This document shows positions 9,865-63,500 of a stretch of 64,000 nt of DNA, piece after piece (the stretch's first letter is position 1; each line of letters begins with the position of its first letter). The notes under the pieces are model-generated. The model ran no database searches. It was not told the origin of the DNA and saw nothing but the letters and a program-made list of their open reading frames with translations. The stretch covers positions 5,050 to 69,049 of the forward strand of contig JALTZZ010000036.1 in NCBI GenBank assembly GCA_027051165.1, read 5' to 3'. Made by a program: the position numbers and the translations under genes. The DNA comes from an archaeon (GTDB lineage Archaea; Hydrothermarchaeota; Hydrothermarchaeia; JALTZZ01).

Positions 9865-10998
9865 ATGGATAAAAAAGTTTATATCGCATATGCGATTGTG
9901 TTCTTTGCGTATTTAGGTTCTTTTTTAAGACTGCCCATAATTCCCCTATATGCAAGCGAACTTGGTGCGGATAAATTTGAAATCGGAATAATAACATTCG
10001 GATTCATGCTAACAGCTTTTATTCTTGCCTTCCCAATGGGTTTTTCTTCTGACAAATTTGGAAGAAAAAAGCTCATTTTGCTTGGTTTATTTCTAAACAT
10101 GGTTTCTTCTCTTATTTTATTCATGTCAGAGAATGTTTTAGAGATTTTCTTTGCAAACATCGTTGGCGGTGCAGGTGTTGCAACGTTTGCACCGAGCTTA
10201 TCCTCATACGTAGGAGATATATCGAAAAGGCTCGGCAAGGCATACGGATACTTCACCGCATGCATGCAGAGCGGAATGGCTGCAGGACCGCTTATGGGTG
10301 GTATTTTAGCAGATGCTCTTGGATATGTTTATAGTTTTCTCATTTCTGCTCTGATTATATTTATATGCATCCCAATTTCACTTTTTATAAGCGAGGTGTA
10401 TATGAGGAGACCTAAGGAAAGCTTTTTCAAGAATCTTTATTTACTTTTAAGGGAGAGAAAAATTTCTGGGAGCTGGATAGCCGTTTTATCAGTCGCATTT
10501 GCATTTGGAGTTTTTATGCCGTTCTTCCCGTTATACGCAAGTGAGGTTGGATATTCAACGTCTATTATAGGTTTGTTCTTCATGATTCAAGCTTTTTTTA
10601 ATGCTTTAAGCAGAATACCGGTTGGATACCTTGCCGATGCTGTGGAAAGAAAGAACTTTATTCCAAGCTTCTCTATGATTGTTTTATCGCTTTTAATTTT
10701 TATTCTACCAAATTTTAAAGATTTTTATTCTTTAGTTCTGATATCTGCATTTATAGGATTTTCGATGGGTTCCTCAACAACCGTCTTAAGCACGATACTT
10801 GCAGAAAACAGCCCTCCGAGGCTGAGAGGATTGACAATGAGCGGATTTAATGCATTTTTATACCTCGGATTTGCTCTGAGCTCTTTTATATGCGGATATT
10901 TCGTAAATGAATACGGATATTTTTACGGCTTCTCCTTAGGAAGCTTAACGTGTCTGCTTGGAGCTTTTATTTTTATAGCATCATTTTTCAACAGATAA
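9865..10998 (+). CDS. MFS transporter
   Basis: About 12 hydrophobic helices; motif A GFSSDKFGRK and its repeat GYLADAVERK. Confidence 0.9.
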   Translation: MDKKVYIAYAIVFFAYLGSFLRLPIIPLYASELGADKFEIGIITFGFMLTAFILAFPMGFSSDKFGRKKLILLGLFLNMVSSLILFMSENVLEIFFANIVGGAGVATFAPSLSSYVGDISKRLGKAYGYFTACMQSGMAAGPLMGGILADALGYVYSFLISALIIFICIPISLFISEVYMRRPKESFFKNLYLLLRERKISGSWIAVLSVAFAFGVFMPFFPLYASEVGYSTSIIGLFFMIQAFFNALSRIPVGYLADAVERKNFIPSFSMIVLSLLIFILPNFKDFYSLVLISAFIGFSMGSSTTVLSTILAENSPPRLRGLTMSGFNAFLYLGFALSSFICGYFVNEYGYFYGFSLGSLTCLLGAFIFIASFFNR

Positions 10999-31133: not shown

Positions 31134-31460
31134 GATATTATAGTTATGTGACTTACGGTTTAATAAATTTATGCTCAAATTACTTTCATGGCTATAAAGT
31201 TGAGGGTTTAATTCTGTTCTTTAAATCAAAATCACGCTTGATGGTGAGCTCGAAACCTTTATTTAGCCTTGTGCTAACGGAAACCCTGCACTTATGCAGC
31301 TCTACGACACGCTTGACCTACTGTTCTTTATTGCAAAATTATTGCGAGAATGTAGCAGAGCTCTTTCTAAGAGAAAAAATTGTGTAAAGATGAATTAACT
31401 TTTTGTTTATAAAAATTAACAGATAATAATTTAAATAATAATATTAAAATATAGGTTATT

Positions 31461-32411
31461 ATGAAAAAATATTTTGTGGTAATGCTTCTAATTTCGATAA
31501 GTCTTTCATGCCTGAGAGGGGGTGCAGAAAGTTCTGAACAACTGCCGCATCAGAAAGCTTTTTTCAGCATAAATAATAAAGGGAAATATATTTTTGTAGG
31601 AACAGACAGCGGCATTGAAGTTTATAAATTTCAAAACGGAACATTGATTCGTATTTGCTCTAAGGAGTTAAATGCAACCGTGCACGATATAGAAATTTTT
31701 AGTGACTATGCTGTATTGTCCCTTGGTAGCAGCGGCATTGCAATAGGGAATATAAGCATGTTTATTGAAAATCCATATAACTACAGCTTCAAAATAATAA
31801 ATATAAATAACAACATACTTGACGCGGAGATTTATAAAAATTACATACTTGCTGGCGGGTTTATAGGAAATAAGATATATGTTTTTGATTTTGGTGGAAG
31901 AAACATTCTAAACATAACAATACCAGAGTATGGGTATGTGAGGAGGATAAAATCTATAGACGATGAAATATATGTGGCTGATTTTACTGGCGGTGTTTAT
32001 AAGCTGAATATATTTACAGACTACGGATTTTATTTTATGATAACAAAGCATTTTGAAACAAGCGGTGTAGCATATGATGTCGAAAAATTTGATGATAGAA
32101 GAATTATTGTTGCATGTTCATTAAAAGGTTTGGATGTTGTTAACAGCGAAAACGGGTCTCTGGAAAAGAATATTCCGGTAAACGGGTATGCAATACTAAT
32201 AAAGAGATACGGAGATAAGTTCTACATAAGCTTGGCTACTGGAGGACTGCTTGTAATAGATAGGGACATGTTTAAAATCTATAAAACAAAAGGAAATATA
32301 CTTGACTTTGTAGTTTTAGAAAATAAAACAGCTATAATTGCTGATTATTACCACCTTTCACTTCTTGATTTAACAACGGGGGAGGTGAGGAGTTATGAAT
32401 GTAAGGTGTAA
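31461..32411 (+). CDS. Exported (probable lipoprotein) beta-propeller, LVIVD-like repeats
   Basis: Signal peptide with Cys (ISLSCLRG); repeated units IFVGTDSGIEVY, IYVADFTGGVYKL, FYISLATGGLLVID, IIADYYHLSLLD. Confidence 0.65.
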   Translation: MKKYFVVMLLISISLSCLRGGAESSEQLPHQKAFFSINNKGKYIFVGTDSGIEVYKFQNGTLIRICSKELNATVHDIEIFSDYAVLSLGSSGIAIGNISMFIENPYNYSFKIININNNILDAEIYKNYILAGGFIGNKIYVFDFGGRNILNITIPEYGYVRRIKSIDDEIYVADFTGGVYKLNIFTDYGFYFMITKHFETSGVAYDVEKFDDRRIIVACSLKGLDVVNSENGSLEKNIPVNGYAILIKRYGDKFYISLATGGLLVIDRDMFKIYKTKGNILDFVVLENKTAIIADYYHLSLLDLTTGEVRSYECKV

Positions 32412-33828
32412 AATAATAATCATAATAGCATTGGTTGTTTATATCACGATTTTTGGAATATTTTACTATATCGCTAAATCGCAGGAGAAGCAGCTTACAA
32501 ACGTTTTAAAAGAGCAGGCAAAGGGAATTGCACAGTCAATTAAACTTGTAAGATACTGGGCTGCGGAAAATAGGGAACTTATAGTTCCAGTTCCAGCTAA
32601 GCTGACGTATGAACTTGCAGAGCTTTCCAACAAAAAATACAACTACAAAATTGGACTTAAATCGAATAAAATAAGGAATTATAAAAATGCTTTGAGTTCT
32701 GAGTTCGACTACAGAAGCTACTATGCATTTATGAATGGAAGAGATGAATACTACATGTTTTCGGATGGAAAATTTATGTATGCGGTTCCGTTGAAGGTAG
32801 AGGAGCCATGTTTATACTGTCATATAGATCAGGGGTATCGTGCAGGCGATCTACGAGGCATTCTCGTGGTTGAGCTTCCTATTGATGAAATAGAAAGGCT
32901 TAAACAGGAAAATAAGAGAAAAATCTTCCTTTTAGCTCTTTTCTCAGCTCTAATAGTTTCCGCATTTCTATATATACTTCTAAGCAGATTTGTTATTGAC
33001 CCGGTGTATAAGCTGAAAGATGTTGCGGAGGAAGTTATGAGGGGAAATTATGATGTTAGAATTAAAAAGAAAAGCGAAGATGAGTTTGGCATGGTATTTG
33101 AAGCCTTTGATAAAATGGTTAGAGAAATAAAGAAAAGAGAAGATGCTATAGTTAGAGCGGAGAAGCTTGCAACGATAGGGAAGATAACATCGGGAATCTC
33201 CCACCAGATAAACAATCCGCTTGCTAACATAATGCTCTACGCCCAGCTTCACAAAATGGAATGCAAGGATAAAAATACAATAAAGGTTCTTGACATAATT
33301 GAAAAAGAAGCAGAAAGAATAGCGAAAGTTGTTAGAAGCCTTTTGGAATATGCTAAAGAGAGGAAAATCAAAAAGAAAATAGTAAAGCTGAGCGACGTAA
33401 TAAACAGTGCATTGGAAATTTTAAGTCCGCTGATGAAGAATATTACTCTCGTAAAAGATTTGAACGACAAAATATATGTGAATGCGGACTTTATAAAGCT
33501 CAGAGAAGCTATTTTAAACATTGTAATTAACGCAATAGAAGCTGTTTCTAATAAAAAAGATGCAAAAATCGTTATAAAGACCTATGTTGATGCATCAAAC
33601 AGCTCGCAGAGGGCAGTGATAGAAGTATCGGACAACGGAATTGGAATTCCGGAGAGCCACTTATCAAAGATTTTTGATCCTTTATTCTCAACGAAAAAAG
33701 ATGGAACTGGTTTAGGATTGGCTATAACTTACGAAATAATAAAGGATCATGGGGGAAATATTAAGGTTGAAAGCAAGGTTGGTGCGGGAACGAAATTTAT
33801 AATAGAACTTCCGATGGTGGTATTATGA
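32395..33828 (+). CDS. Membrane sensor histidine kinase with extracytoplasmic heme-c (DUF3365-like) sensor, HAMP, HisKA and HATPase_c
   Basis: Two TM helices flank PLKVEEPCLYCH..GYRAGDLRG; HAMP KSEDEFGMVFEAF; H-box ISHQINNPL; N, G1 (DNGIGI), F and G2 (GTGLGL) boxes. Confidence 0.9.
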   Translation: MNVRCKIIIIIALVVYITIFGIFYYIAKSQEKQLTNVLKEQAKGIAQSIKLVRYWAAENRELIVPVPAKLTYELAELSNKKYNYKIGLKSNKIRNYKNALSSEFDYRSYYAFMNGRDEYYMFSDGKFMYAVPLKVEEPCLYCHIDQGYRAGDLRGILVVELPIDEIERLKQENKRKIFLLALFSALIVSAFLYILLSRFVIDPVYKLKDVAEEVMRGNYDVRIKKKSEDEFGMVFEAFDKMVREIKKREDAIVRAEKLATIGKITSGISHQINNPLANIMLYAQLHKMECKDKNTIKVLDIIEKEAERIAKVVRSLLEYAKERKIKKKIVKLSDVINSALEILSPLMKNITLVKDLNDKIYVNADFIKLREAILNIVINAIEAVSNKKDAKIVIKTYVDASNSSQRAVIEVSDNGIGIPESHLSKIFDPLFSTKKDGTGLGLAITYEIIKDHGGNIKVESKVGAGTKFIIELPMVVL

Positions 33829-34451
33829 CCAAGAAGATTTTGGTTGTGGAGGACGATCAGAATCTTAGGAATGGGTTGGAGATGCTGCTTAAAACAAGAG
33901 GTTATGAAGTAAAGACCGCAGAAAATGGTGCAAAGGCTTTGGATATGCTAAGGAAAGAGGATTTCGATTTAATAATTGCAGACTTAATAATGCCAGAGCT
34001 TGACGGCATGGAGCTATTAAGAATTGCAAGGAAGATGTGTCCGCATACAAGTTTCATCGTAATAACGGCTTATGGAACTGTGGAGAGTGCAGTTGAAGCT
34101 ATGAAGCTTGGTGCATGTGACTATATTCTTAAACCGTTTAAAATAGACGAGGTCTATTCGAAGGTTCTAAAAGCACTTGAGGAGGTAAAAATAAGATCCG
34201 AGAGAAGAGTTATTGACGAGTGTTCTTTTAAGTGTCTTTCAAATTCCATAAGAAGGTCTATTATAAGATTTTTATCGAAGAACGAGAAGGCACGCTTCGT
34301 GGATATAATGAACGCGGTTAACATTAAAGATTCAGCGAAGCTGAGTTTTCATTTAAAATTTTTAAAGAAGCACGGTGTTATAGATAAAGATGAAACCAAA
34401 TTTTATTATTTAACATCAAGAGGAAAAATGTTAGCAGAGCTTTTATCATAG
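33825..34451 (+). CDS. Response regulator, receiver + winged-HTH output domain
   Basis: ILVVEDD, DLIIADLIMP (phospho-Asp), ITAYG, KPF; C-terminal LSNSIRRSIIRFL..SAKLSFHLKFLKKHGVI..YYLTSRG. Confidence 0.88.
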   Translation: MTKKILVVEDDQNLRNGLEMLLKTRGYEVKTAENGAKALDMLRKEDFDLIIADLIMPELDGMELLRIARKMCPHTSFIVITAYGTVESAVEAMKLGACDYILKPFKIDEVYSKVLKALEEVKIRSERRVIDECSFKCLSNSIRRSIIRFLSKNEKARFVDIMNAVNIKDSAKLSFHLKFLKKHGVIDKDETKFYYLTSRGKMLAELLS

Positions 34452-34495
34452 TCTCTTTATTTTTATGCTTTTATTCGATATTTAATAAAAAGTTA

Positions 34496-34567
34496 TTTAC
34501 AAACTTGTAAATGCGGATTTCAAAAAAGAATATAAATAACTTTTATTAAAATTTAAAGTGGGGATGT
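34496..34567 (+). promoter_or_regulatory. Palindromic operator + BRE/TATA + RBS upstream of the octaheme nitrite reductase
   Basis: TTTACAA-AC-TTGTAAA (34496-34511), AAAAAAG followed by AATATAAATA, then AGTGGGGATG; paralogous to 37263-37333. Confidence 0.6.
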
Positions 34568-34570
34568 GGT

Positions 34571-36451
34571 ATGAGATACGGTGTGGTTGTTGTTTCTATG
34601 CTCTTGGCTATGGTAGTGATGCTTGGAACAGTAAGTGCAGCAGTTAAGGAACAGTGTAAAACATGTCATAGCGATATGTATGGCTTCTTGCAGGAGGGTA
34701 AGCACAAGACTCATGATTGCAGTCTATGCCATGGAGATTCTACAAAGCAGCTGCAGGATCACATGTCAAATCCAAAGAAAACAAAGCCTTCAATAAAACC
34801 GCTGGAAGAAGGACCTAAATTCTGTGGGCAGTGTCATGAAAAATACTATGAGCAGTACAAAGATATAAACTGGAAGTCTATTGCAAAAATTGAGAAGGCT
34901 AGCCCAGTAGGTAGAGCACCAGCATTTGATCTATTACTCCACAGATACGGATTCGTGTTCGAGCATGCTGAGCCAAGAAGCCATGTATTCATGCTACTCG
35001 ATCATGTGATCGTTGACAGGGGTTACAAAGGAAGATTTAGACTTAAGGACTACAGTCTATTTGTTCCGCCAGAAGGATGGGACGGTGACATAACACCGCT
35101 AATTGTTGATACAAAGAAGAACAATCCTTACAGTGGTAGAGCTGATGTGAAGGGTCTGAAACCATGGGTCGCTGGAGCTGGGAGCACTATATGTCTGCAG
35201 TGTAAGACAACTGATATGGTAGTTGGCTGGGAAACGATAAGCAAAGGTGGAAACAAGACCGGTTATGCAAAGTTCATGAGGTGGGGTAATGCAAAAACCG
35301 CGGAGCTTATAGCAGCGGGTAAGATAAAGAGATCTCTAAACTGCGTCCACTGCCACGATCCACACATGACAAAGATGAGAGTTATAAGAGATGCACTTAT
35401 AGAAGCGGTAAAGAAGAAAGGTCCATTCCCATACGATAAAGAAAAGAATGAAAAAGCTAAGAAGCTTTACAAGATAGTGGCATTCCCAAGCGTAAAGAAC
35501 AACTACAGAGAAATTATTGTATGGGATGCCGATGCTAAGGATCCAAAGCTAAACTGGCTAACGTGTGCGCAGTGCCACGTAGAGTATGAGTGCAACCCAG
35601 TTACAGATGTGAAGACGGATAAGAAAGTAAAGCATGAGGAAGATCCAAGGACAAACATATTCCCATGGGTAAACGTCAACGAAGTCTACGACTACTACCT
35701 CAAGGAAGTCGGTATCTACACATTTAAGCATGGTATCACAAAAGCTAAGCTTATAAAAGCCCAGCATCCAGAGGTTGAGGTATGGTGGGAAAGCAAGCAC
35801 GAAAAGAACAACGTTGACTGTATAGACTGCCACATGCCAGAGATCGATGGCATAGCGTTCCACTCGCCAAGAAGCCCACAAGATATAGGTGTTGATAAAA
35901 CATGTTTGAAGTGCCACAAAGAGTGGGATGTGGAGCAAGCTAACTACGTAATTGAGTCAATACAGGAATACAGTAAGGGTAAGATGAGAGACGCTGAGTT
36001 CCACCTATCAAGACTTGTTGACAGGATAAAGCTTGCCGAGCAGATAGGAGTTGATCCAGCGAAGATAGAAGAAGCGAGAGAATTGCATGCAAGAGCACAT
36101 ATACTATGGGAGTGGTGGACCGCTGAAAACAGCGACGGATTCCACGATCCAGATGAAGCTTGGCTAACGCTTGGCGAGGCTTCAAGACTCGCAGAGAAAG
36201 GCTGGAAGATGCTTGACGAAGAGATAAAGAAAAAGATGGAGGAGCTGCAGGCTAAAATAGAAAAAGCACCAGCTGAGAAGGTTCCAAAGGCTGAGGAAGT
36301 CGTTCCAAAAGTTGAGAAGCCGGCTCCAGAAAAGCCAGCAGAGGTAAAGCCACCAGCAGAAGAGAAGAAAGGCATCTGCGGTCCAACAGCTATTATAGCA
36401 CTTGCAATGCTACCTCTGGCTGGATACCTTGCTCTAAAGAGAAGAAGATAA
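34571..36451 (+). CDS. nrfA: Octaheme cytochrome c nitrite reductase (NrfA/TvNiR-type) with CGP-CTERM anchor
   Basis: Signal peptide; CKTCH, CSLCH, CGQCH, CLQCK (Lys-ligated active-site heme), CVHCH, CAQCH, CIDCH, CLKCH; LIKAQHPEVE; AENSDGFH; Pro/Glu/Lys linker then GICGPTAIIALAMLPLAGYLALKRRR. Confidence 0.9.
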   Translation: MRYGVVVVSMLLAMVVMLGTVSAAVKEQCKTCHSDMYGFLQEGKHKTHDCSLCHGDSTKQLQDHMSNPKKTKPSIKPLEEGPKFCGQCHEKYYEQYKDINWKSIAKIEKASPVGRAPAFDLLLHRYGFVFEHAEPRSHVFMLLDHVIVDRGYKGRFRLKDYSLFVPPEGWDGDITPLIVDTKKNNPYSGRADVKGLKPWVAGAGSTICLQCKTTDMVVGWETISKGGNKTGYAKFMRWGNAKTAELIAAGKIKRSLNCVHCHDPHMTKMRVIRDALIEAVKKKGPFPYDKEKNEKAKKLYKIVAFPSVKNNYREIIVWDADAKDPKLNWLTCAQCHVEYECNPVTDVKTDKKVKHEEDPRTNIFPWVNVNEVYDYYLKEVGIYTFKHGITKAKLIKAQHPEVEVWWESKHEKNNVDCIDCHMPEIDGIAFHSPRSPQDIGVDKTCLKCHKEWDVEQANYVIESIQEYSKGKMRDAEFHLSRLVDRIKLAEQIGVDPAKIEEARELHARAHILWEWWTAENSDGFHDPDEAWLTLGEASRLAEKGWKMLDEEIKKKMEELQAKIEKAPAEKVPKAEEVVPKVEKPAPEKPAEVKPPAEEKKGICGPTAIIALAMLPLAGYLALKRRR

Positions 36452-36482
36452 ATTCTCCAATTTTTTCTTTTTATTATTTTGT

Positions 36483-37226
36483 ATGAGTTTTAAACTTAAA
36501 CTAATAATAATCCTAATATCCTTTTCTATACTGCTGGTAGCATGCAATCTTTTCGAGAAAAATTCTAAGAAGAATTTTTATGAGGGATTCTACGAAGGAT
36601 ACATGCAGGGGTTATCTCAGGGTTATAAAGAGGGTTATGAACTTTCGTGCACAGAAAAAATATTTCCGGAGATCGTGAGAAAAGAAGGTGTAATAGTGAG
36701 AAAATTTGACGTTGGCGACTACATAGTAAATGTTAGAATAAGCACGAGAAAATACTTCTACTACAAATTTAAAGAAGAGGAAAATCTTTCCGAATACATT
36801 ACCCCAAATGAAAGCGAGATAAAGGAGCTTGCCTTAATTCTAAGAAAGCTCTATCCAGATGATGAGGATTTCGCAAGGATTTGCTTAAAAATAGTCCAGC
36901 AGATAAAGTATGAGGATGATATAACGGCTTTTAATGTGAAATTTCCGGTAGAAACGCTTGCCGAGGGAAGCGGAGACTGCGAGGACTTGGCAATACTCCT
37001 TGCCTCGTTGCTTAGAGCTGGTGGACTAAACGCAAGCCTCGTAGTTTTCGATGCCCATGTAGGGGCTGCTGTAAACCTTAAAAATTTAAGAAAAATACCA
37101 AAAGATGGAGCTTTCTTTCTTGAATACAATGGAAAAAAATTTTACTACTGTGAGCCACAGGAAAATTTCGATATCGGTGAAATGCCCAAAAAATATATAA
37201 ACAGCACTGCCAAGCTTTTGTTTTAA
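36483..37226 (+). CDS. Lipoprotein with transglutaminase-like cysteine protease domain
   Basis: LLVACN lipobox-like; GSGDCEDLAILLASLL, AHVGAAV, YYCEP (Cys-His-acid triad order). Confidence 0.68.
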   Translation: MSFKLKLIIILISFSILLVACNLFEKNSKKNFYEGFYEGYMQGLSQGYKEGYELSCTEKIFPEIVRKEGVIVRKFDVGDYIVNVRISTRKYFYYKFKEEENLSEYITPNESEIKELALILRKLYPDDEDFARICLKIVQQIKYEDDITAFNVKFPVETLAEGSGDCEDLAILLASLLRAGGLNASLVVFDAHVGAAVNLKNLRKIPKDGAFFLEYNGKKFYYCEPQENFDIGEMPKKYINSTAKLLF

Positions 37227-37262
37227 AAATTTCGGTAGCAAAGCTTTTTATGTTAACTATTG

Positions 37263-37333
37263 TTTACAAATTGTTAATTTTTATTTTAAAAAAGCATATA
37301 TATTACTTATTTATAAAAAATAGAGTGGGGATG
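37263..37333 (+). promoter_or_regulatory. Second copy of the upstream module, in front of the Reeler-nap operon
   Basis: TTTACAAATTGTTAA, AAAAAAG followed by CATATAT, AGTGGGGATG, with spacing within 1-2 nt of the 34496 copy. Confidence 0.55.
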
Positions 37334-37337
37334 GTGG

Positions 37338-37898
37338 ATGAAGTTCAAAGTATTGGTGTTCTATGTTTTATTAGCCGTGTGTGTTGCGATGGGTAGTGCC
37401 TTCGCTCTGAGCAACGGTGCACCAGACTTAAAGTGTGCAAAGTGTCATAAGAACGTTGTTGGCACCGCTGATATAAAGATTTCTGGACTTCCAGAAAAAT
37501 ACAAGCCGGGCAAAGAGTATACAATTGAAATAGAGATTTTGAGTAGTGTAAAGAGCACGGGCTTTTCTCAGGGAGGTTTTGCCATAGAAGCCAGTGCTGG
37601 AGAGCTGAAAGTTGTTGATGAAAAAAATACACTAAAAAGTGGAAAATACGTTACCCATACTACTGAAGGTGCAGGAAAAAGAAAGTGGAAAGTTGTCTGG
37701 CAAGCTCCAGATAAGCCCGTTGAAGTTACGATAAGCGTTTCAGCCATAGCCTCTAACGGTGATGCATCTCCAGCAAACGATGCTATGGGAATGAAAACAG
37801 TAAAGATAAAGCCAGAGCTTCCATCAAAAACTCTGGGCTATCTTCTGATAATAATAGGAATAGGATTGCTTGTTTTTGCGATATTATATAAGGGGTGA
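37338..37898 (+). CDS. Membrane-anchored monoheme cytochrome c with Reeler-like (choice-of-anchor V-like) domain
   Basis: Signal peptide, CAKCH, GLPEKYKPGKEYTI, GGFAIEASAG, YVTHT, WKVVWQAP, ASNGD, C-terminal TM helix. Confidence 0.72.
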   Translation: MKFKVLVFYVLLAVCVAMGSAFALSNGAPDLKCAKCHKNVVGTADIKISGLPEKYKPGKEYTIEIEILSSVKSTGFSQGGFAIEASAGELKVVDEKNTLKSGKYVTHTTEGAGKRKWKVVWQAPDKPVEVTISVSAIASNGDASPANDAMGMKTVKIKPELPSKTLGYLLIIIGIGLLVFAILYKG

Positions 37899-37903
37899 TA
37901 TAG

Positions 37904-40900
37904 ATGGGTTTGACGAGAAGAGATTTTATTAGAGCAAGTGCCTTAGCTGCAGCTGCTGCGTGCATCGGTGCTGGTGGTTATTTAGCAACCAGAAAAGAGG
38001 AGATTGCAAAAGTGCTACCGATAAGAACGAAGGACTTTCCAGTTGGACAGTGCAGATTCTGTGCGGTTGGATGCACAACCGTAGCAGAGGCTGAGGTTGA
38101 TGAGTCTGGAAAGATAGTCAAGGTCATTGCAATAAAGGGAGACCCTACAAGTCCAGTTAATAGGGGTGTTCTCTGCACGAAAGGATTTTATTTGAACAAA
38201 GCCTTAGCCTATGAAAAAAGACCAAAGAAGCCACTTATAAGAAAGGAATGGATAAATCCAGCAACAGGAAAACCTGATTTGAAAAATTCACCGAGAGTAA
38301 CTAAAGGAGTAACAACAAAAGACCCAGAGGGATTAAAGCCGAGCGAAGTTGACCTTCAGGAGAACTTCGTTGAGGTTGACTGGGAAACAATACTTGAGTT
38401 TATAGCGGATGCAATGGAAATGTGCATAAATGAATACGGAATCTTCTCGATAGGCTACTACGGAAGCGGTCAGCTTGGAACCGAGGAAACCTATGTTATG
38501 AACAAGGCTTTAAAAGGTGGCTTGCCCAACAACCACATAGAAGGTCAGCCAAGGATGTGCATGGCAAGTGCCGTTGTTGCCTATCTTCAAACGTTTGGCA
38601 GAGACGAGCCTTATGGATGCTTTGACGATATAGATGTCCCAGACCCGGATTATGGAGTTCATGCAGATACGTTCTTTATAATGGGAAACAATACCGCAGA
38701 AGCGCATCCAGTTCTTTTCAACAGAATTGCAACTCTAAAACATAAAAATCCAGAAAAAATAAAAATAATACTTGCAGATCCGAGAAAAACGAGAAGCGGA
38801 ACAGTAGCTGATTTATGGCTGCCGTTCATGTCGGGCTCCAATCTAAGCCTGCTGAACGCAATGCTGCACTACATAGTCCTTGAGGCGAACAATATAAAGC
38901 GTGTTGTTGATGTAGATAATGCAAAAGTTGAGCTCAACGACGGCAGAGTAGTTCATCTAAAGGATATAAACTGGAAGTATGTTGATATAAAATTCATAAA
39001 AAGACACTGTAACTTTGGAATAGTAACTCAGGTTCAGAAGGTATGGGTTTTAAACAAGTATGGCGGAACGAGAGGAGAAGTTTGGGATCCAGCATATAAA
39101 TTAGGAACAAAAGCACAGTTCTTCCCGGATCCGAGAAAAGCGGATAAATATAAATCAGAAGAAGAAATAGAAAAGGACTGGTGGAAAGGATTCGCAATGT
39201 ATATAAAGTTCTTAGAAGACTATAAGCCGGAGAAAGTTGCTGATATTGTATTCAGGGGAGAAACTCCGCTGAAGTATGACAGGGCAAAGGGTGAATGGGT
39301 GGAAATAGATCAGGCAGAGGCTATCAGGCTTGCGGCTAAGTGGTTCGCAGAGGGATATACAGTTAGCCTATGGTGCATGGGCGTAAACCAAAATGTTCAG
39401 GGTGTCTGGATAAACAGGGCTATACATGCTCTGCATCTAATAACTGGAAAAGCTGTAAAGCCGGGTAGACATGCGTTTAGCCTAACTGGTCAGCCAAACG
39501 CGTGCGGCGGTATAAGAGCTCCCGGAGCTCTCTGCCATGCACTGCCCTATGGAAGGGTAGTCTTCGATGGTGTAAACAGAAAAGAGGTTGAGGACATCTG
39601 GAAAAAGAACCTTGCAAACTATCTAAGAAAGAAGGGATACAGCGAAGCTGAGATTCAGAAAGAAATTGAAAAGATAAAGATACACGGAAAACCGGGACCG
39701 CATACAATAGAGATGTTCAGAAGATATGGTGCAGGGCAGATAAAGATAATGTTCATTTCTACCGTGAACCCCGGGCAGAGCCTTCCTTATGCGTATGTAT
39801 ATAGAAAGGCAATGGCAGGTGCAGAGAAGAGTAAACCATGGCCTCTTACAATAACTCTCGAAGCATTCCCGAGCACAACTACGCTTGTTAGCGACATTGT
39901 TCTACCAGCTGCAAGCTGGTATGAGAAATCGTTTACATATGGAAATACGGAAAGAAGATATCAGTATATAAGGAAGATCATGGATCCACCATCCAAGGAA
40001 ATGCTTCCGGATTCAGTGATATTTGCAATGATATGGAGAAAAATGGAAGAAAGAGGAATAATACCAAAAGGCTTTATATCAATGTTCTGGCCTGAGGAAT
40101 ATGGAGAAGACTGGATTAAAAAGACGATAGAAAACTGCCACAAGCCTGAGTGGATAGATAAGTTCACAGAGAACCTGTGGAACGAGCTTAGAGAGTTGAG
40201 CAATGAAACACCATACGATCTCAGCGGAATAACAAGAAAGAGACTCAAAGAAAAGGTATCTGGATACAGAATGCCGATGCCAGAAGAATACGACACGGAT
40301 CCTGATGTAAGGGCAAGATATGACAAATATCAGTCAAGAATCACCTATGCATATCCATACGATCCGCATATAGAGAAGCATACAAAAAGGGCTCTTGAAA
40401 ACTTGAAGAAGTGGGCACCGCTATATGCAAGATGGGTTGAGAAAAATATAGAAGAAACTAAGAACGATTTAGAATATAAGAGAAAAGAAAAGCTTCCAGA
40501 TAACTACTGGATAAGCTTCTATGCAGCATGCAAGCCAGTATATAAACGTAAACAGCTTCCAGATGGAAGCAAGGTTCCTATAATAGACTGCAGAGCTATA
40601 ATATGGTCAAATCCGCATTGGGCTACATATTACGATGAGAAGGAGCAGAAATTCAAGATATTTAAGAAAGTGAAGATAATAAAGAAGAAGTTCAATCCCG
40701 AAAAGGCATACAAAGGTCTCTCAGCAGGACCGCTTCCATTTGACAAAATTGAGGAGTTTGAAGCAGATGTTATAGGAGATCCAGAGAGAGACCTAAATGC
40801 AATGTTTACCCTTGTTCTAAGTCCGCCAGAAGTGCCTGGAGTTAAAATTGCCTACAGAAAGCCAGATGGAAGCGAGATCGTAATAATGGATGCGAGAGAC

Positions 40901-41311
40901 TATCCATACGGCGTATGCACGGGCAGAGTAATAGAGCACTGGCACACAGCAACGATGACTAATAGGGTGCCGGAGATAAACAGAGTCCTACCAGAAGCTT
41001 ATGTCGAAATAAACGTGAAACTTGCAGAAAAGCTTGGAATAAAGGATGGGGATCCAGTTATACTCGAATCACCGAGAGCAAAAATAGAGCTTAAAGCTAA
41101 GGTTCTCGATCCAAAGAAGGCATTAGGTGGTCCAAGATACGATTACCTCTTTGTTCCGTGGTTCGATGAGAAGAAGCTTATAGGATTCCTACTAAGGGAT
41201 AACTTCGATCCATTCAGCTTCCAAGCGGACTACAAGATGGCAGCAGTTAAGCTATACAAAGGAACCCTTCAGAGAAAACAGGCTATAGCAAAGCCCTTAA
41301 CGGTAGCTTAA
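37904..41311 (+). CDS. napA: Periplasmic-type nitrate reductase catalytic subunit (NapA-like molybdoenzyme, 1135 aa)
   Basis: Tat signal TRRDF; CRFCAVGC...C [4Fe-4S]; PRMCMASAV (Mo-ligating Cys); NTAEAHP; SLTGQPNACG; CTGRVIEHWHT. Confidence 0.88.
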   Translation: MGLTRRDFIRASALAAAAACIGAGGYLATRKEEIAKVLPIRTKDFPVGQCRFCAVGCTTVAEAEVDESGKIVKVIAIKGDPTSPVNRGVLCTKGFYLNKALAYEKRPKKPLIRKEWINPATGKPDLKNSPRVTKGVTTKDPEGLKPSEVDLQENFVEVDWETILEFIADAMEMCINEYGIFSIGYYGSGQLGTEETYVMNKALKGGLPNNHIEGQPRMCMASAVVAYLQTFGRDEPYGCFDDIDVPDPDYGVHADTFFIMGNNTAEAHPVLFNRIATLKHKNPEKIKIILADPRKTRSGTVADLWLPFMSGSNLSLLNAMLHYIVLEANNIKRVVDVDNAKVELNDGRVVHLKDINWKYVDIKFIKRHCNFGIVTQVQKVWVLNKYGGTRGEVWDPAYKLGTKAQFFPDPRKADKYKSEEEIEKDWWKGFAMYIKFLEDYKPEKVADIVFRGETPLKYDRAKGEWVEIDQAEAIRLAAKWFAEGYTVSLWCMGVNQNVQGVWINRAIHALHLITGKAVKPGRHAFSLTGQPNACGGIRAPGALCHALPYGRVVFDGVNRKEVEDIWKKNLANYLRKKGYSEAEIQKEIEKIKIHGKPGPHTIEMFRRYGAGQIKIMFISTVNPGQSLPYAYVYRKAMAGAEKSKPWPLTITLEAFPSTTTLVSDIVLPAASWYEKSFTYGNTERRYQYIRKIMDPPSKEMLPDSVIFAMIWRKMEERGIIPKGFISMFWPEEYGEDWIKKTIENCHKPEWIDKFTENLWNELRELSNETPYDLSGITRKRLKEKVSGYRMPMPEEYDTDPDVRARYDKYQSRITYAYPYDPHIEKHTKRALENLKKWAPLYARWVEKNIEETKNDLEYKRKEKLPDNYWISFYAACKPVYKRKQLPDGSKVPIIDCRAIIWSNPHWATYYDEKEQKFKIFKKVKIIKKKFNPEKAYKGLSAGPLPFDKIEEFEADVIGDPERDLNAMFTLVLSPPEVPGVKIAYRKPDGSEIVIMDARDYPYGVCTGRVIEHWHTATMTNRVPEINRVLPEAYVEINVKLAEKLGIKDGDPVILESPRAKIELKAKVLDPKKALGGPRYDYLFVPWFDEKKLIGFLLRDNFDPFSFQADYKMAAVKLYKGTLQRKQAIAKPLTVA

Positions 41312-41340
41312 CTCTATTTTTATTTTTTTAAGGTGTAGGA

Positions 41341-42087
41341 ATGAAAAAAGGAATAAAAAGAAGAGATTTTCTAAAATTTTATATTCTTTCTCCGCTTTTA
41401 TTTGGATTTAACACTAAAAAAGATGAAGAGCTTGAAGATGTTGTAAGACCACCTGGTGCAAGCAGAGGATTCTCAAGAAAGTGCGTAAGGTGCTCCGCAT
41501 GTGTCAGCACATGCAGGAATGTCGGCAGATACGCCATAACGCTTGCAGGGCTTTCAAAAGGCATAAGGAACCTTGGAACGCCAGTTGTAGAGAACATGAG
41601 GGAATACCCATGCGATCTCTGCATGGAGTGCACAAAAATTTGTCCAACAGGGGCTTTAAAAGAGATACCAAAGGAAAAGGTGAAGATGGGCGTTGCGGTT
41701 ATAGATATAGACCTGTGCTTGGGGTGGAACTCCGATGTCTGCCTCTCGTGTAGCAAGGTTTGCCCATTTGCAAACGATGTTTTTGAATTTAGAAGCTCAG
41801 AATGGGGAAATCAGCCATATATAAAGCCAGATAAATGTGTAGGCTGCGGTTTGTGTGTTAAAGCGTGTATTGTGAGGAAAACAGCCGTAGTTGTATATCC
41901 GCCCAAAAAATACAGAGAAATAGAGAGGGAGTATCTGATGTATCTTGACTATATTGAAAGCCTTCCCAATCTAAACAGATACAAGGTTGTATACGAGGAC
42001 AACCTGCCGAGAATACTTGAAATAGGTATAGAAAGGGAAAGGGAGGAAAGGGTTCTGAGAGAGCTAAAAAAGAGGAAGGTGAAGTAA
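41341..42087 (+). CDS. napG: NapG/MauM ferredoxin-type protein
   Basis: RRDF, VRPPGA, CVRCSACVSTC, CDLCMECTKICPTGAL, GVAVIDIDLC, CVGCGLC. Confidence 0.9.
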   Translation: MKKGIKRRDFLKFYILSPLLFGFNTKKDEELEDVVRPPGASRGFSRKCVRCSACVSTCRNVGRYAITLAGLSKGIRNLGTPVVENMREYPCDLCMECTKICPTGALKEIPKEKVKMGVAVIDIDLCLGWNSDVCLSCSKVCPFANDVFEFRSSEWGNQPYIKPDKCVGCGLCVKACIVRKTAVVVYPPKKYREIEREYLMYLDYIESLPNLNRYKVVYEDNLPRILEIGIEREREERVLRELKKRKVK

Positions 42088-42830
42088 TGATCAGCAGAGC
42101 AAGAAGGCTTGTGCTTGCCTTAATATTAGCTCTATTTATCCTTCAGTTCTTTGGTATAGAAATTTTGAAGGGAAACCTTGTAAGCTCGATATTTTTAAAT
42201 AAAATCTATCTTTTTGATGTTTTTTCTGGTATAGAAACAATTTTATCTTCTAAACGATTGGAGATTAATATAATCCTCGGAATACTCACGGTAACCTTCA
42301 TATACGTTATATTCGGAAGAGCGTTCTGTGGATGGATATGTCCGCTTGATGCGGTTTTTTCATATATAAAAGGAAGGGAGAAAAATAGAAAAACCTTAAA
42401 TCCAGCCTATCCAGCGGTATTTTTTCTCACAGCTTCGCTACTGCTCTCACAACCGATATTTGCATCATATATCTCACCAGTATCGAACTTCTTTAGAATA
42501 ATATACTCCCCATTTCTTGGAAGCATTTCTCTGCTCATTTTCTCTGGAGCAATGATCCTTCCGATAATTCTTATGGAAATTCTTGAAAAAAGATTTTGGT
42601 GCAAAAATATTTGTCCAATAGGATTTATCTATGGAAAATTTAATAAAATAAGCTTAATAGGAATAAAAATAGATAAAAATGCATGCATAGACTGCAAAGC
42701 CTGCGTGCAAGCATGCCCTATGGATGTTGAGATAAAAAAATACAGCACCAGAATAAGATCATCGAACTGCATTCTCTGCGGGATATGTGTCGAAAAATGC
42801 GAGAAAAATGCACTAAAATTTGGGGGGTGA
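42087..42830 (+). CDS. napH: NapH membrane polyferredoxin (quinol dehydrogenase)
   Basis: GRAFCGWICP, RFWCKNICPIG, CIDCKACVQACP, CILCGICVEKC; several TM helices. Confidence 0.9.
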   Translation: MISRARRLVLALILALFILQFFGIEILKGNLVSSIFLNKIYLFDVFSGIETILSSKRLEINIILGILTVTFIYVIFGRAFCGWICPLDAVFSYIKGREKNRKTLNPAYPAVFFLTASLLLSQPIFASYISPVSNFFRIIYSPFLGSISLLIFSGAMILPIILMEILEKRFWCKNICPIGFIYGKFNKISLIGIKIDKNACIDCKACVQACPMDVEIKKYSTRIRSSNCILCGICVEKCEKNALKFGG

Positions 42831-42833
42831 ATA

Positions 42834-43055
42834 ATGGTTGTGGTGAGCGGATATTTTGTCGTTAGACCTGAGTGCAAAGTTGAAGATGCAATAAGCAAAG
42901 CAAAGGAGATCGGTGTAGAGATTCACTACGTAAAGGAAAACAAAGTCCTAATTTTGATAGAGGACGATCCAAAAACGGTTAAAAGAAAACTAAATAGATT
43001 AAAGAAAATTGAAGAGATCGAAAACGTCTTTATAGCATACTACTCTCTTGAATAA
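42834..43055 (+). CDS. napD: NapD-like Tat proofreading chaperone
   Basis: 73 aa, ferredoxin-like pattern (SGYFVVRPE, GVEIH, KVLILIE, VFIAY); last gene of the nap operon. Confidence 0.75.
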   Translation: MVVVSGYFVVRPECKVEDAISKAKEIGVEIHYVKENKVLILIEDDPKTVKRKLNRLKKIEEIENVFIAYYSLE

Positions 43056-44612: not shown

Positions 44613-45175
44613 GGTTTACATTTAGGGAGATTAAGGAGCTTCTGATATCAACAATTATAATAACGTTCTGCTTTGCATGGGTTCACAGAGATTTACCAAT
44701 AAACTTTGGTGTGCTCTACATTTACATGTTCATAGTAGTTGGCAGTGCTTTTGCTCTTCACGAGCTTGGGCACAAGATAAGTGCTCAGAGATTTGGACAC
44801 TACGCAGAGTATAGAATGTGGGAGTTTGGCTTGCTGATAGCATTTGTCCTTGCGGTAACGGTAAACTGGTTCTTCATAGCTCCGGGCGCTGTCTATATTA
44901 TACCGAGCTATAGGGGAATGTCGAGAGAGGAGAACGGAATAATCTCCGTAAGTGGTATTATTGTAAACATAAGCCTTTCTCTGCTCTTCTATATAGGATA
45001 TCAATTAACAGGGCTGTGGTTCCTTGGATATGGGGCGATGATAAATGCATTCTTAGCTTTCCTAAACCTCTTGCCAATACCCCCATTAGATGGATCAAAG
45101 GTTCTTACATGGAATCCAATTGCGTGGATCGTTCTAATTGCAGTATCCTTTATGATAACATCAAAGCTCTGGTAA
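44609..45175 (+). CDS. Site-2 protease (M50) family
   Basis: HELGH zinc motif, APGAV, FLNLLPIPPLDG. Confidence 0.9.
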   Translation: MRFTFREIKELLISTIIITFCFAWVHRDLPINFGVLYIYMFIVVGSAFALHELGHKISAQRFGHYAEYRMWEFGLLIAFVLAVTVNWFFIAPGAVYIIPSYRGMSREENGIISVSGIIVNISLSLLFYIGYQLTGLWFLGYGAMINAFLAFLNLLPIPPLDGSKVLTWNPIAWIVLIAVSFMITSKLW

Positions 45176-45182
45176 GCGGTGT

Positions 45183-45275
45183 GCTGACCTCCTCCCCGCC
45201 CTAAAGGGCGAGGGTTCTCATAGGGAACATCTCACTCAGCCGCCTCACGACGGCTTCACGAGGCAGGTTGGTGTC
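45183..45275 (-). mobile_element. Isolated IS200/IS605-family (tnpB-type) right end, omega-RNA-like 3' scaffold
   Basis: Minus strand reads ...CCTGCCTCGTGAAGCCGTCGTGAGGCGGC...GAACCCTCGCCCTTTAGGGCGGGGAGGAGGTCAG; hairpin CGCCC-TAAA-GGGCG at 45197-45210. Confidence 0.65.
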
Positions 45276-45768
45276 ATCGGGCTGGGTCAGAGCAGCCGAA
45301 AAAGCCGGGATAAAGAAGAGGATTCATCCCCACATATTCAGACACTCCAGAGCCACCTTCTTGGCTAATCATTTCACAGAGGCACAGATGTGCGAATATC
45401 TTGGCTGGGTTAAAGGGTTACCAATGCCACAGGTTTATGTTCATCTGAGCGGTAGGGATGTTGACAAGGCAATTTTAAAGCTTCACGGCATTGAGATAGA
45501 GGAAGAAGACAAGCCAAAGCCAAAGAAGTGTCCAGGGTGCAGATTGGCAAATCCGAGCATCGCAAGATTTTGCATAAGGTGCGGAGCAATCTTGGATATG
45601 GAAACTGCCTTAGAGCTTGAGGTTAAGGAGAACGAAATGACTAAGATATTCTTAGAAAATCCAAAGCTTATGGACAAAGCCATTAAGCTCGCTCAGATGC
45701 TTGAACTGATAGAGAAGATTGGCTGGGATAAGGTTAAGCAGTTAGCGGAGCAGATGGGAGGAAAATGA
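45268..45768 (+). pseudogene. Tyrosine recombinase/integrase, C-terminal fragment
   Basis: AAEKAGIKKRIHPHIFRHSRAT, LGW, YVHLS (catalytic Tyr), zinc ribbon CPGC..CIRC. The N-terminal domains and first Arg are missing. Confidence 0.8.
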
Positions 45769-63337: not shown

Positions 63338-63500
63338 TTACTTGTTTATACTTTCTTTAATCTTCATTTTTATAACTTTAACAATTCTTTCTTTACGAGA
63401 ATCATTATAAACAATTCTATATTTTCCGATTCTACATTTAAAAATATCTTCTAAATCTTCAAGTCTTCTAATATCATATAACACTTTGTTAAAAAGGTAT
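63338..63500 (-). pseudogene. RelE/ParE-like toxin C-terminal remnant
   Basis: LYDIRRLEDLEDIFKCRIGKYRIVYNDSRKERIVKVIKM; no start codon, in-frame stop just upstream. Confidence 0.6.

What the first reader, a model, noticed from the sequence alone, without database searches (positions are those of the whole stretch)
34496..37333. Duplicated upstream module predicts the operator of the island
The ~75 bp before nrfA and before the Reeler-nap operon align. Each has TTTACAAA(C)TTGT(A/T)AA, then 25-26 nt from its start an AAAAAAG BRE-like tract with a TATA-like element, and an identical AGTGGGGATG RBS. The first copy is a perfect 7-bp inverted repeat located just upstream of BRE, where archaeal activators bind. 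A weaker similar tract (TTAACTTTTTGTTTATAAAAATTAA) lies upstream of 31461.
Basis: seen in the sequence. Interest (0 to 1): 0.62.

Follow-up and report, generated by a model that had tools for sequence, protein, structure and literature searches.

The report
Shared palindromic operator before nrfA and nap
Two neighbouring operons for nitrate and nitrite respiration in an uncultured vent archaeon carry near-duplicate promoters with a rare, conserved 15-16 bp palindrome, most likely the docking site of the adjacent two-component regulator, though binding is untested.

Summary
The ~80 bp before nrfA (34571) and before the choice-of-anchor-V/"Reeler"-napAGH operon (37338) are by far the most similar pair of upstream regions in the window: local score 41, next best 21.

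Each module has four parts:
- a palindrome: TTTACAA-AC-TTGTAAA (nrfA) or TTTACAA-A-TTGTTAA (nap);
- exactly 10 nt of spacer;
- an AAAAAAG A-tract plus a TATA box;
- a GGGGATG Shine-Dalgarno sequence.

The palindrome occurs nowhere else in the 64 kb. It is also absent from 20.7 kb that is probably the same genome.

The organism is an archaeon (Hydrothermarchaeota relatives, HgcC RNA), so the BRE/TATA reading fits.

In a syntenic relative (L096), third codon positions are only ~50% identical. Yet the nap promoter is identical over 63 nt, the longest identical run in 16 kb. In the nrfA promoter the half-sites and the BRE/TATA are kept while the spacer and flank diverged. A distant relative (Ca. 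Pyrohabitans, L005) has TTTATAA-A-ATGTAAA at the same place before nrfA.

The best reading is an upstream activating operator that co-regulates nitrate-to-ammonium respiration. It is probably bound by the adjacent REC-wHTH response regulator, whose kinase has a heme-c Cache (NO-sensor-type) domain.

Binding, transcription start sites and the sign of regulation are untested. The proposed autoregulatory site before 31461 is only a single half-site.

The parts
34496..34511 (+). nrfA-promoter palindrome TTTACAA-AC-TTGTAAA (8-2-8 with flanks 34495-34512); candidate operator/UAS
   Evidence: In L096 the left half is 10/10 conserved, the right half keeps TGTwAA, and the spacer and next 6 nt diverged.
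34522..34537 (+). A-tract (BRE-like AAAAAAG) plus TATA box ATATAAAT of the nrfA promoter
   Evidence: TTTCAAAAAAGAATATAAA is 19/19 identical in L096. The same frame, 32-34 nt before the ATG, is seen in L004, L005 and L006. The consensus is enriched in the window.
34557..34566 (+). Shine-Dalgarno region AGTGGGGATG (conserved core GGGGATG) 5 nt before the nrfA ATG
   Evidence: Orthologues have GGGGAT or GGTGAT at the same place.
34571..37226 (+). nrfA operon: NrfA-type nitrite reductase (CLQCK plus 7 CXXCH motifs) and a transglutaminase-like protein
   Evidence: Pfam and NCBIfam; translation.
37263..37277 (+). nap-promoter palindrome TTTACAA-A-TTGTTAA (7-1-7, 6/7 pairs)
   Evidence: It lies inside a 63-nt run (37261-37322) identical in L096, the longest identical run in the 16-kb alignment.
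37288..37303 (+). A-tract AAAAAAG plus TATA box ATATATAT of the nap promoter
37324..37333 (+). Shine-Dalgarno region AGTGGGGATG before the first gene of the nap operon
37338..43055 (+). nap-like operon: choice-of-anchor-V ('Reeler') monoheme protein, TAT-signal NapA-like molybdoenzyme, NapG-like and NapH-like proteins, and a 73-aa ORF
   Evidence: Pfam and NCBIfam; the best hits are NapA, NapG and NapH, below the equivalog cut-offs.
31461..34451 (+). Candidate regulator operon: 316-aa secreted protein, histidine kinase (Tll0287-like/sCache_heme with CLYCH, HAMP, HisKA, HATPase), and response regulator (REC with D53 plus ArsR-type wHTH/DUF7347)
   Evidence: The synteny of this two-component system with nrfA is kept in five species.
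31410..31437 (+). Promoter of the two-component-system operon: a conserved 27-nt block with one half-site ATTAACAG directly before a TTTAAATA TATA box (leaderless geometry)
   Evidence: Identical run 31410-31436 against L096. Positions 31409-31421 are a 13/13 reverse-complement match to nap 37272-37284. It is not a palindrome.

Best explanation
The two ~80-bp modules are paralogous archaeal promoters that put nitrite reduction (nrfA) and nitrate reduction (napAGH-like) under one control.

Each has a core promoter (A-rich BRE, TATA, short leader with a GGGGAU Shine-Dalgarno sequence). Exactly 10 bp upstream of the BRE lies a 15-16 bp palindrome, TTTACAA-N1-2-kTGTwAA. If the TATA centre is taken as about -27, the palindrome is centred near -57.

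The palindrome is the binding site of a dimeric transcription factor. The most likely factor is the REC-wHTH response regulator encoded immediately upstream. Its partner kinase has an extracytoplasmic heme-c Cache domain of the kind reported to behave as an NO sensor.

Proposed mechanism: a signal at the kinase leads to phosphorylation of D53. The regulator dimer then binds the palindrome and helps TBP/TFB recruitment, switching on both operons together.

Shown here:
- the sequence architecture;
- the rarity of the motif;
- purifying selection on it;
- the domain make-up of the kinase and the regulator;
- conserved linkage of the two-component system with nrfA.

Inferred:
- the transcription start sites;
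- which protein binds;
- activation rather than repression;
- the nature of the signal.
For: Rarity and recurrence:
- The motif is found only at the two promoters in 64 kb.
- There is none in L083, 20.7 kb that is probably the same genome (GC 0.362, tetranucleotide r 0.985).
- The relaxed pattern hits nothing else in 1.52 Mb of held loci except the orthologous promoters.
- The promoter pair is a >9 sd outlier in the all-against-all comparison.

Selection (window against L096):
- Third-codon identity is 0.47-0.58.
- The nap promoter has a 63-nt perfect run.
- In the nrfA promoter the left half is 10/10, the right half keeps TGTwAA, the spacer is 0/2, the next 6 nt are 1/6, and the BRE/TATA is 19/19.
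- L005 (NrfA 68% identical, GC 52%) has TTTATAAAATGTAAA 11 nt before its A-tract.

Core promoter: the A-tract+TATA consensus is enriched and its frame is conserved in five species.

Regulator:
- REC domain E 3e-30, plus DUF7347/HTH_5.
- The model has pLDDT 91.7 and a canonical wHTH after a long linker helix.
- The best solved relative of the DNA-binding domain is the SurR wHTH.
- D53 and K103 are present.

Linkage and kinase:
- The HK-RR-nrfA order is kept in five Hydrothermarchaeota species.
- The kinase sensor has CLYCH within a Tll0287-like domain. Such fused domains behave as NO sensors (PMC12889525).

DNA-level element: RNA folding gives z -1.3 to +1.1, so nothing suggests an RNA structure.

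Weak family-level support: other REC-DUF7347 genes are followed by AT-rich inverted repeats next to the next promoter. L088 has TTGAAAT-TC-ATTTCAA, L087 has TTGAA-N6-TTCAA, L083 has GTTCATATGAAC.
Against: - There are no binding data and no RNA data; no RNA runs hold this locus.
- The two copies differ in half-site spacing (2 against 1 bp), and each keeps its own spacing in L096. That is awkward for a rigid symmetric dimer.
- L004 and L006 have the same two-component system and the same recognition helix as L005. They keep only the left part (TTTATAAAAT), about 10 bp further upstream, and have no inverted right half.
- L003 (NrfA 81%) shows no motif in the 140 nt available.
- The two-component-system operon's own promoter has only one half-site.
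- A paralogous regulator (P0002, 53% identity, similar recognition helix) probably exists in the same genome and could be the binder.
- The whole nap promoter is invariant, not just the palindrome, so the constraint is not specific to the motif there.
Confidence: 0.5

Rival explanations
1. The palindrome is a genuine operator but is bound by a different transcription factor. Candidates are the orphan paralogue P0002 (REC-DUF7347 lacking the phospho-acceptor Asp) or an unlinked global redox/nitrogen-oxide regulator. The adjacent two-component system would then act elsewhere or only indirectly.
For: - P0002 sits on a contig of matching composition from the same run, next to another molybdoenzyme operon.
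- Its recognition helix (NSAKLSFH) is close to that of the adjacent regulator (DSAKLSFH).
- L004 and L006 keep the two-component system but not the inverted repeat.
- There is no palindrome at the two-component-system operon's own promoter.
Against: - Regulator-target adjacency is conserved in five species.
- The P0002 locus carries its own, different palindrome (GTTCATATGAAC) in its own duplicated module.
- L005 has both the two-component system and the motif.
Confidence: 0.2
2. The palindrome is a repressor or dual-function site, or works architecturally by DNA bending or positioning, rather than recruiting TBP/TFB. The regulator would hold the promoters off until the signal arrives.
For: - ArsR-type wHTH proteins are classically repressors (general knowledge).
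- SurR, the closest solved relative of the DNA-binding domain, both activates and represses depending on site position (general knowledge).
- The sequence from TATA to SD is also strongly conserved, so further sites may exist there.
Against: The site ends 10 bp upstream of the BRE and does not overlap BRE, TATA or the predicted start. That is the usual place for archaeal activators and an ineffective one for simple occlusion (established knowledge of Ptr2-, GvpE- and SurR-type regulation).
Confidence: 0.15
3. There is no specific operator. One promoter was copied when the nap cluster was placed next to nrfA. The similarity is common descent plus selection on a strong core promoter, and the inverted repeat is incidental.
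For: - The similarity runs through the whole 80 bp, including the stretch from TATA to SD.
- The nap cluster is absent next to nrfA in L004-L006.
- 16-bp near-palindromes are common.
- The module is not a dispersed repeat.
Against: - In the nrfA promoter the half-sites are conserved while the 2-bp spacer and the 6 nt between motif and BRE were almost completely replaced.
- The A-to-T change in the right half reproduces the nap variant.
- L005 keeps the motif at the same distance from the BRE despite 52% GC and 68% NrfA identity.
- Neutral sites are near saturation.
Confidence: 0.12
4. It is an RNA-level element: a terminator hairpin of the upstream operon or a 5'-UTR structure.
For: The inverted repeat could form an 8-bp AU-rich hairpin, and it follows T-rich tracts after the regulator gene's stop codon.
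Against: - Folding energies are -4.6 and -1.7 kcal/mol, with z -1.27 and +0.78. The leaders give z +1.1 and +0.35.
- Archaeal termination needs oligo-T, not hairpins (established knowledge).
- There is no Rfam match here.
Confidence: 0.03

Closest known systems
[quoted passage not shown]
   Same: A two-component system whose regulator binds a 16-bp 7-2-7 inverted repeat upstream of the core promoter of both the nitrite-reductase (nrf) and the periplasmic nitrate-reductase (nap) operons, co-inducing nitrate-to-ammonium respiration (review PMC12285233).
   Different: - The consensus differs. NarL/NarP sites are TACYYMT-N2-AKRRGTA, with TAC...GTA 10 bp apart; here they are 6 bp apart.
- The regulator has an ArsR-type wHTH, not a GerE/LuxR HTH.
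- The kinase has a heme-c Cache sensor, not the NarX nitrate-binding P-box domain.
- The target is an archaeal TBP/TFB promoter, not a sigma70/FNR promoter.
NrfS-NrfR of Desulfovibrio vulgaris (sigma54-type two-component system next to nrfHA)
   Same: A dedicated two-component system encoded beside nrfA. The REC domain here is most similar to NtrC-family receivers: 39-54% identity, and the best structural match is NtrC1.
   Different: No AAA+ sigma54-activator domain and no Fis-type HTH. Archaea lack sigma54. The output is a wHTH (DUF7347).
Archaeal upstream-binding activators (Ptr2 of M. jannaschii, GvpE, and SurR when activating mbh)
   Same: A site immediately upstream of BRE/TATA, dimeric wHTH or HTH proteins, and presumed recruitment of TBP/TFB. 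The DNA-binding domain's best solved relative is SurR.
   Different: - The motif differs; SurR binds GTTn3AAC.
- The regulator is phosphorylation-controlled through a REC domain rather than by a ligand or a redox disulfide.
- Nothing has been tested biochemically.
Known archaeal DNA-binding response regulators (FilR1 of Methanosaeta, LtrR of Methanococcoides, Bat of haloarchaea)
   Same: Rare archaeal response regulators that carry an HTH output (PMC5847659).
   Different: - The domain order differs: REC at the N-terminus and wHTH at the C-terminus, against wHTH-DUF1724-REC (FilR1) or HTH-REC (LtrR).
- It comes from a different phylum (Hydrothermarchaeota).
- Its targets are respiratory nitrogen-oxide reductases.

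Membership tests
Archaeal TBP/TFB promoter with upstream activating site | A TATA box with a purine-rich BRE directly upstream, at a fixed distance from the start codon or transcription start | tested here: met
   AAAAAAG plus ATATAAAT/ATATATAT lies 33-34 nt before the ATG. The same frame is seen in five species. The consensus is enriched 15 against 3.4. The host is archaeal.
Archaeal TBP/TFB promoter with upstream activating site | The regulator site lies upstream of the BRE and does not overlap the BRE, TATA or transcription start | tested here: met
   The palindrome ends 10 bp before the A-tract in both copies and 11 bp before it in L005.
Archaeal TBP/TFB promoter with upstream activating site | Mapped transcription start and factor-dependent stimulation of transcription | not testable with these tools
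NarL/NarP 7-2-7 heptamer operator | Consensus TACYYMT-N2-AKRRGTA, bound by a GerE/LuxR-type HTH regulator | tested here: not met
   The sequence is TTTACAA-AC-TTGTAAA. The regulator has HTH_5/DUF7347 and no GerE domain.
ArsR/SmtB-type winged-helix DNA-binding domain | Sequence and fold of the wHTH (helix-turn-helix plus beta wing) | tested here: met
   PF01022 HTH_5 scores 27.2 bits (cut-off 22) and DUF7347 40.9 bits (cut-off 27.6). The AlphaFold model shows H158-165, H170-182, b186-188 and b194-196, with pLDDT >90. PDB relatives are SurR, ArsR, CadC and HlyU.
ArsR/SmtB-type winged-helix DNA-binding domain | Binds an imperfect inverted repeat as a dimer | not testable with these tools
   The candidate site is an inverted repeat, but binding was not measured.
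Two-component phosphorelay | A kinase with HisKA plus HATPase_c, and a regulator REC domain with the acidic pocket, phospho-acceptor Asp and conserved Lys | tested here: met
   Pfam. D10/D11, D53 and K103 are present. The genes overlap by 4 bp (33825-33828).
sCache_heme (Tll0287-like/DUF3365) gas-sensor kinases | A Tll0287-like domain with a CXXCH heme-c motif, outside the membrane, fused to a transmitter | tested here: met
   PF11845 E 1.3e-11 over residues 32-162. CLYCH lies between an N-terminal and a second hydrophobic segment, followed by HAMP. NO binding itself is not testable here (PMC12889525).
SurR-type operator | A GTTn3AAC core | tested here: not met
   No GTT-N3-AAC lies inside either palindrome. 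A conserved GTTAAC lies 5 nt upstream of the nap motif only.

The most novel reading that the evidence does not exclude
A bacterial-type NO/heme-c sensor kinase and an NtrC-like receiver were acquired by Hydrothermarchaeota together with nrfA. They were rewired to the archaeal basal transcription machinery by fusing the receiver to an archaeal ArsR-type wHTH. The 16-bp palindrome near -57 is that regulator's activating operator. This would be the first definable operator and regulon of a DNA-binding two-component regulator outside methanogens and haloarchaea, and the first regulatory circuit described for archaeal nitrate-to-ammonium respiration.
Probability: 0.35. Interest if true: 0.7.

Novelty: new variant of a known kind. 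Interest (0 to 1): 0.5.

Why it matters
DNA-binding response regulators are rare in archaea, and heme-Cache sensor kinases are almost absent from them (PMC5847659, PMC12889525). Regulation of nrfA/nap has been described only in bacteria (PMC12285233).

This locus offers a compact, testable circuit: one kinase, one regulator, and two promoters with a defined 16-bp site and natural variants in spacing and half-site sequence. It could show two things:
- how a horizontally acquired bacterial signalling module is coupled to TBP/TFB promoters;
- how uncultured vent archaea switch on nitrate and nitrite respiration.

If the site is not bound by the regulator, what remains is an ordinary pair of duplicated, co-evolving promoters.

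Tried and rejected
- **Transcription start mapping.** No RNA run holds the locus. DNA runs only showed near-identical strains.
- **Metagenome scan with the NapA-like protein.** It gave only 41-63% relatives, useless for footprinting.
- **Shared-k-mer search.** Run across nrfA and two-component-system promoters of the high-GC species L004-L006, it gave only BRE/TATA-like words. A common operator there is unresolved.
- **Third site at 63479 (TAACACTTTGTTA).** It has no promoter architecture and was dropped.
- **Bacterial -35/-10 reading (TTTACA...TATAAA).** The spacing is 29 nt and the host is archaeal, so it was rejected.
- **Dispersed repeat or mobile element.** There are no further copies.
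- **RNA hairpin, terminator or leader structure.** There is no signal.
- **Foldseek on the regulator model.** The results were dominated by the REC domain and added nothing on the wHTH beyond the sequence search.
- **TTTCAAAAAA as part of the operator.** It resembles the arm ATTTCAA of palindromes in other family loci. It is better explained as the general BRE/T-tract consensus.
Full report
**What is there**

Window 34452-34570 and 37227-37337 are the intergenic regions before two operons.
- The first is an NrfA-type nitrite reductase gene. The protein has the CLQCK active-site heme motif and seven CXXCH motifs.
- The second operon encodes a choice-of-anchor-V ('Reeler') monoheme protein, a TAT-signal NapA-like molybdoenzyme, and NapG-like and NapH-like proteins.

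Directly upstream lies a three-gene operon:
- a 316-aa secreted protein;
- a histidine kinase with a Tll0287-like domain carrying CLYCH, followed by HAMP, HisKA and HATPase domains;
- a response regulator with REC and an ArsR-type wHTH (DUF7347).

**Check of the observation**

The palindrome pattern TTTACAA-N1-2-TTGTWAA hits only these two sites in 64 kb, against 0.01 expected. I compared 29 upstream 83-mers of the window all against all. The nrfA/nap pair scores 41, the next pair 21, with mean 10 and sd 3.2. The module is not a dispersed repeat.

The right half-site ends exactly 10 nt before the AAAAAAG tract in both copies. The two copies differ by one base in the palindrome centre (AC against A).

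Near-perfect 16-bp palindromes as such are frequent, 20 in the window. So palindromy alone carries little weight.

**Host and promoter type**

The closest NrfA relatives are MAGs labelled Hydrothermarchaeota, Ca. Pyrohabitans and 'archaeon'. The window also carries an HgcC RNA, an archaeal family. An archaeal promoter reading is therefore appropriate.

AAAAAAG-N-ATATAWAT with up to two mismatches occurs 15 times against 3.4 expected, so it is the general promoter consensus of this genome. In five species an A-tract plus TATA lies 32-34 nt before the nrfA start codon, followed by GGGGAT or GGTGAT.

If the TATA centre is at about -27, transcription would start near G34560 and G37327. The palindrome centres would then be at about -57. 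This is inference: no RNA run holds the locus.

**Conservation**

L096 (GCA_054046405.1) is fully syntenic, with NrfA 88% identical. Third codon positions are only 47-58% identical, so neutral sites are close to saturation.

Against that background, the nap promoter is identical over 63 nt (37261-37322). This is the longest identical run in the whole 16-kb alignment; the next longest is 44 nt, inside napA.

In the nrfA promoter the pattern is more telling:
- TTATTTACAA is 10/10 conserved.
- The 2-bp spacer is 0/2.
- The right half changes from TTGTAAA to GTGTTAA. This keeps TGTwAA and reproduces the nap variant.
- The next six bases are 1/6.
- TTTCAAAAAAGAATATAAA is 19/19.

It hits only these promoters, their orthologues in L096, and one more place: TTTATAAAATGTAAA in L005 (Ca. 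Pyrohabitans JdFR-17, NrfA 68% identical, GC 52%), 11 nt before the A-tract of its nrfA promoter.

L083, a 20.7-kb contig from the same run with matching composition, has no hit.

Conservation has limits:
- L004 and L006 keep only TTTATAAAAT, inside a conserved 20-nt block about one helical turn further upstream.
- L003 shows nothing in its 140 available bases.

**Who binds**

This is the inferred step.

For the adjacent regulator:
- It has a complete receiver (D10/D11, D53, K103) and a confidently modelled wHTH after a long linker helix.
- Its DNA-binding domain is closest to the SurR N-terminal wHTH among solved structures.
- The kinase-regulator-nrfA order is kept in all five species.
- Other members of this small family are also followed by AT-rich inverted repeats next to the neighbouring promoter. 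Only five further full-length homologues were found among 5.8 billion proteins.

Against it:
- The half-site spacing differs between the two copies.
- The right half is missing in L004 and L006 although their recognition helix equals that of L005.
- The regulator operon's own promoter has only a single half-site. That half-site lies in a 27-nt conserved block and matches the nap right half and its flank 13/13 in reverse.
- A paralogue (P0002), lacking the phospho-acceptor Asp, probably sits in the same genome.

**Mechanism proposed**

The kinase's sensor is a heme-c Cache domain. A 2026 preprint reports that such domains behave as NO sensors, not O2 sensors, when fused to signalling modules. 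It also reports that they are almost absent from archaea (PMC12889525).

The receiver is most like NtrC-family receivers. DNA-binding response regulators are rare in archaea (PMC5847659).

The most economical model has four steps. A nitrogen-oxide or redox signal acts at the kinase. The regulator is phosphorylated. The dimer binds the palindrome. This helps TBP/TFB recruitment at both promoters.

The position upstream of the BRE favours activation, by analogy with established archaeal regulators. RNA-level readings are disfavoured.

**Comparison with known systems**

In function this resembles NarQ-NarP/NarX-NarL control of nrf and nap through 7-2-7 inverted repeats, and the NrfS-NrfR system next to nrfHA in Desulfovibrio (PMC12285233). 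Membership in those families fails on motif and on output domain.

It fits the class of archaeal upstream activating sites, but as an untested new instance with a phosphorylation-controlled wHTH regulator.

**Verdict**

The promoter and shared cis-element reading is well supported by comparative evidence. The assignment to the adjacent regulator and the sign of regulation are plausible but unproven. The suggested third site is weak. Overall this is moderately interesting: a new variant of a known kind.

Noticed in passing
window 45171-45300 (-): HgcC-family non-coding RNA (Rfam RF00062, 97 bits). It is an archaeal marker and overlaps the start of a mechanical ORF at 45268.
   Followed up: no
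L083 9362-9433 and 9920-9991: A contig that is probably from the same genome carries a paralogous REC-DUF7347 regulator (P0002, 53% identical, phospho-acceptor Asp replaced by Asn). It lies divergent from a molybdoenzyme/NarJ-like operon. The 628-bp gap holds its own duplicated ~85-bp module, with GTTCATATGAAC/GTTTATATGAAG next to TATATATA.
   Followed up: partly
L088 4651-4666; L087 ~10697-10712; L104 4846-4905: Other REC-DUF7347 regulator genes are followed by inverted repeats with TTGAA(AT)/(AT)TTCAA arms before the next promoter. L088 has TTGAAAT-TC-ATTTCAA overlapping the stop codon. L087 has TTGAA-T6-TTCAA. L104 has TTGAAAT...ATTTCAA 37 nt apart, plus CTAAAATTTTTAG.
   Followed up: partly
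window 34571-36451: NrfA has three extra N-terminal CXXCH motifs ahead of the CLQCK pentaheme core. It also has a C-terminal Pro/Glu/Lys-rich linker ending in GICGP-hydrophobic-KRRR, which looks like a C-terminal sorting or anchor signal. No nrfH gene is nearby.
   Followed up: no
window 37338-37898: The 'Reeler' protein is an NCBIfam choice-of-anchor V domain protein (E 5e-27). It has a CAKCH heme motif and a C-terminal transmembrane segment, so it may be the electron-transfer partner of the NapA-like enzyme.
   Followed up: no
window 37904-41311: The NapA-like protein is 1135 aa, against ~830 aa for NapA. It scores well below the NapA equivalog cut-off (430 against 904 bits), so its substrate is not certain.
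   Followed up: no
window 37304-37322 and 34538-34556: The stretch between TATA and Shine-Dalgarno (ACTTATTTATAAAAAATAG / ACTTTTATTAAAATTTAAAG) is similar in both promoters and conserved in L096. The nap copy contains a second TATA-like TTTATAAAA that would fit a leaderless start. It could be a second regulatory site.
   Followed up: no
L004 9214-9762, L005 9305-9886, L006 9318-9839: The high-GC relatives have an extra thioredoxin/glutaredoxin-like gene between the regulator and nrfA, and no adjacent nap cluster. The nap cluster and its copied promoter seem specific to the low-GC lineage.
   Followed up: partly
window 37252-37257: A GTTAAC hexamer 5 nt upstream of the nap palindrome is conserved in L096 while its flanks diverged. 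It may be an additional half-site.
   Followed up: no
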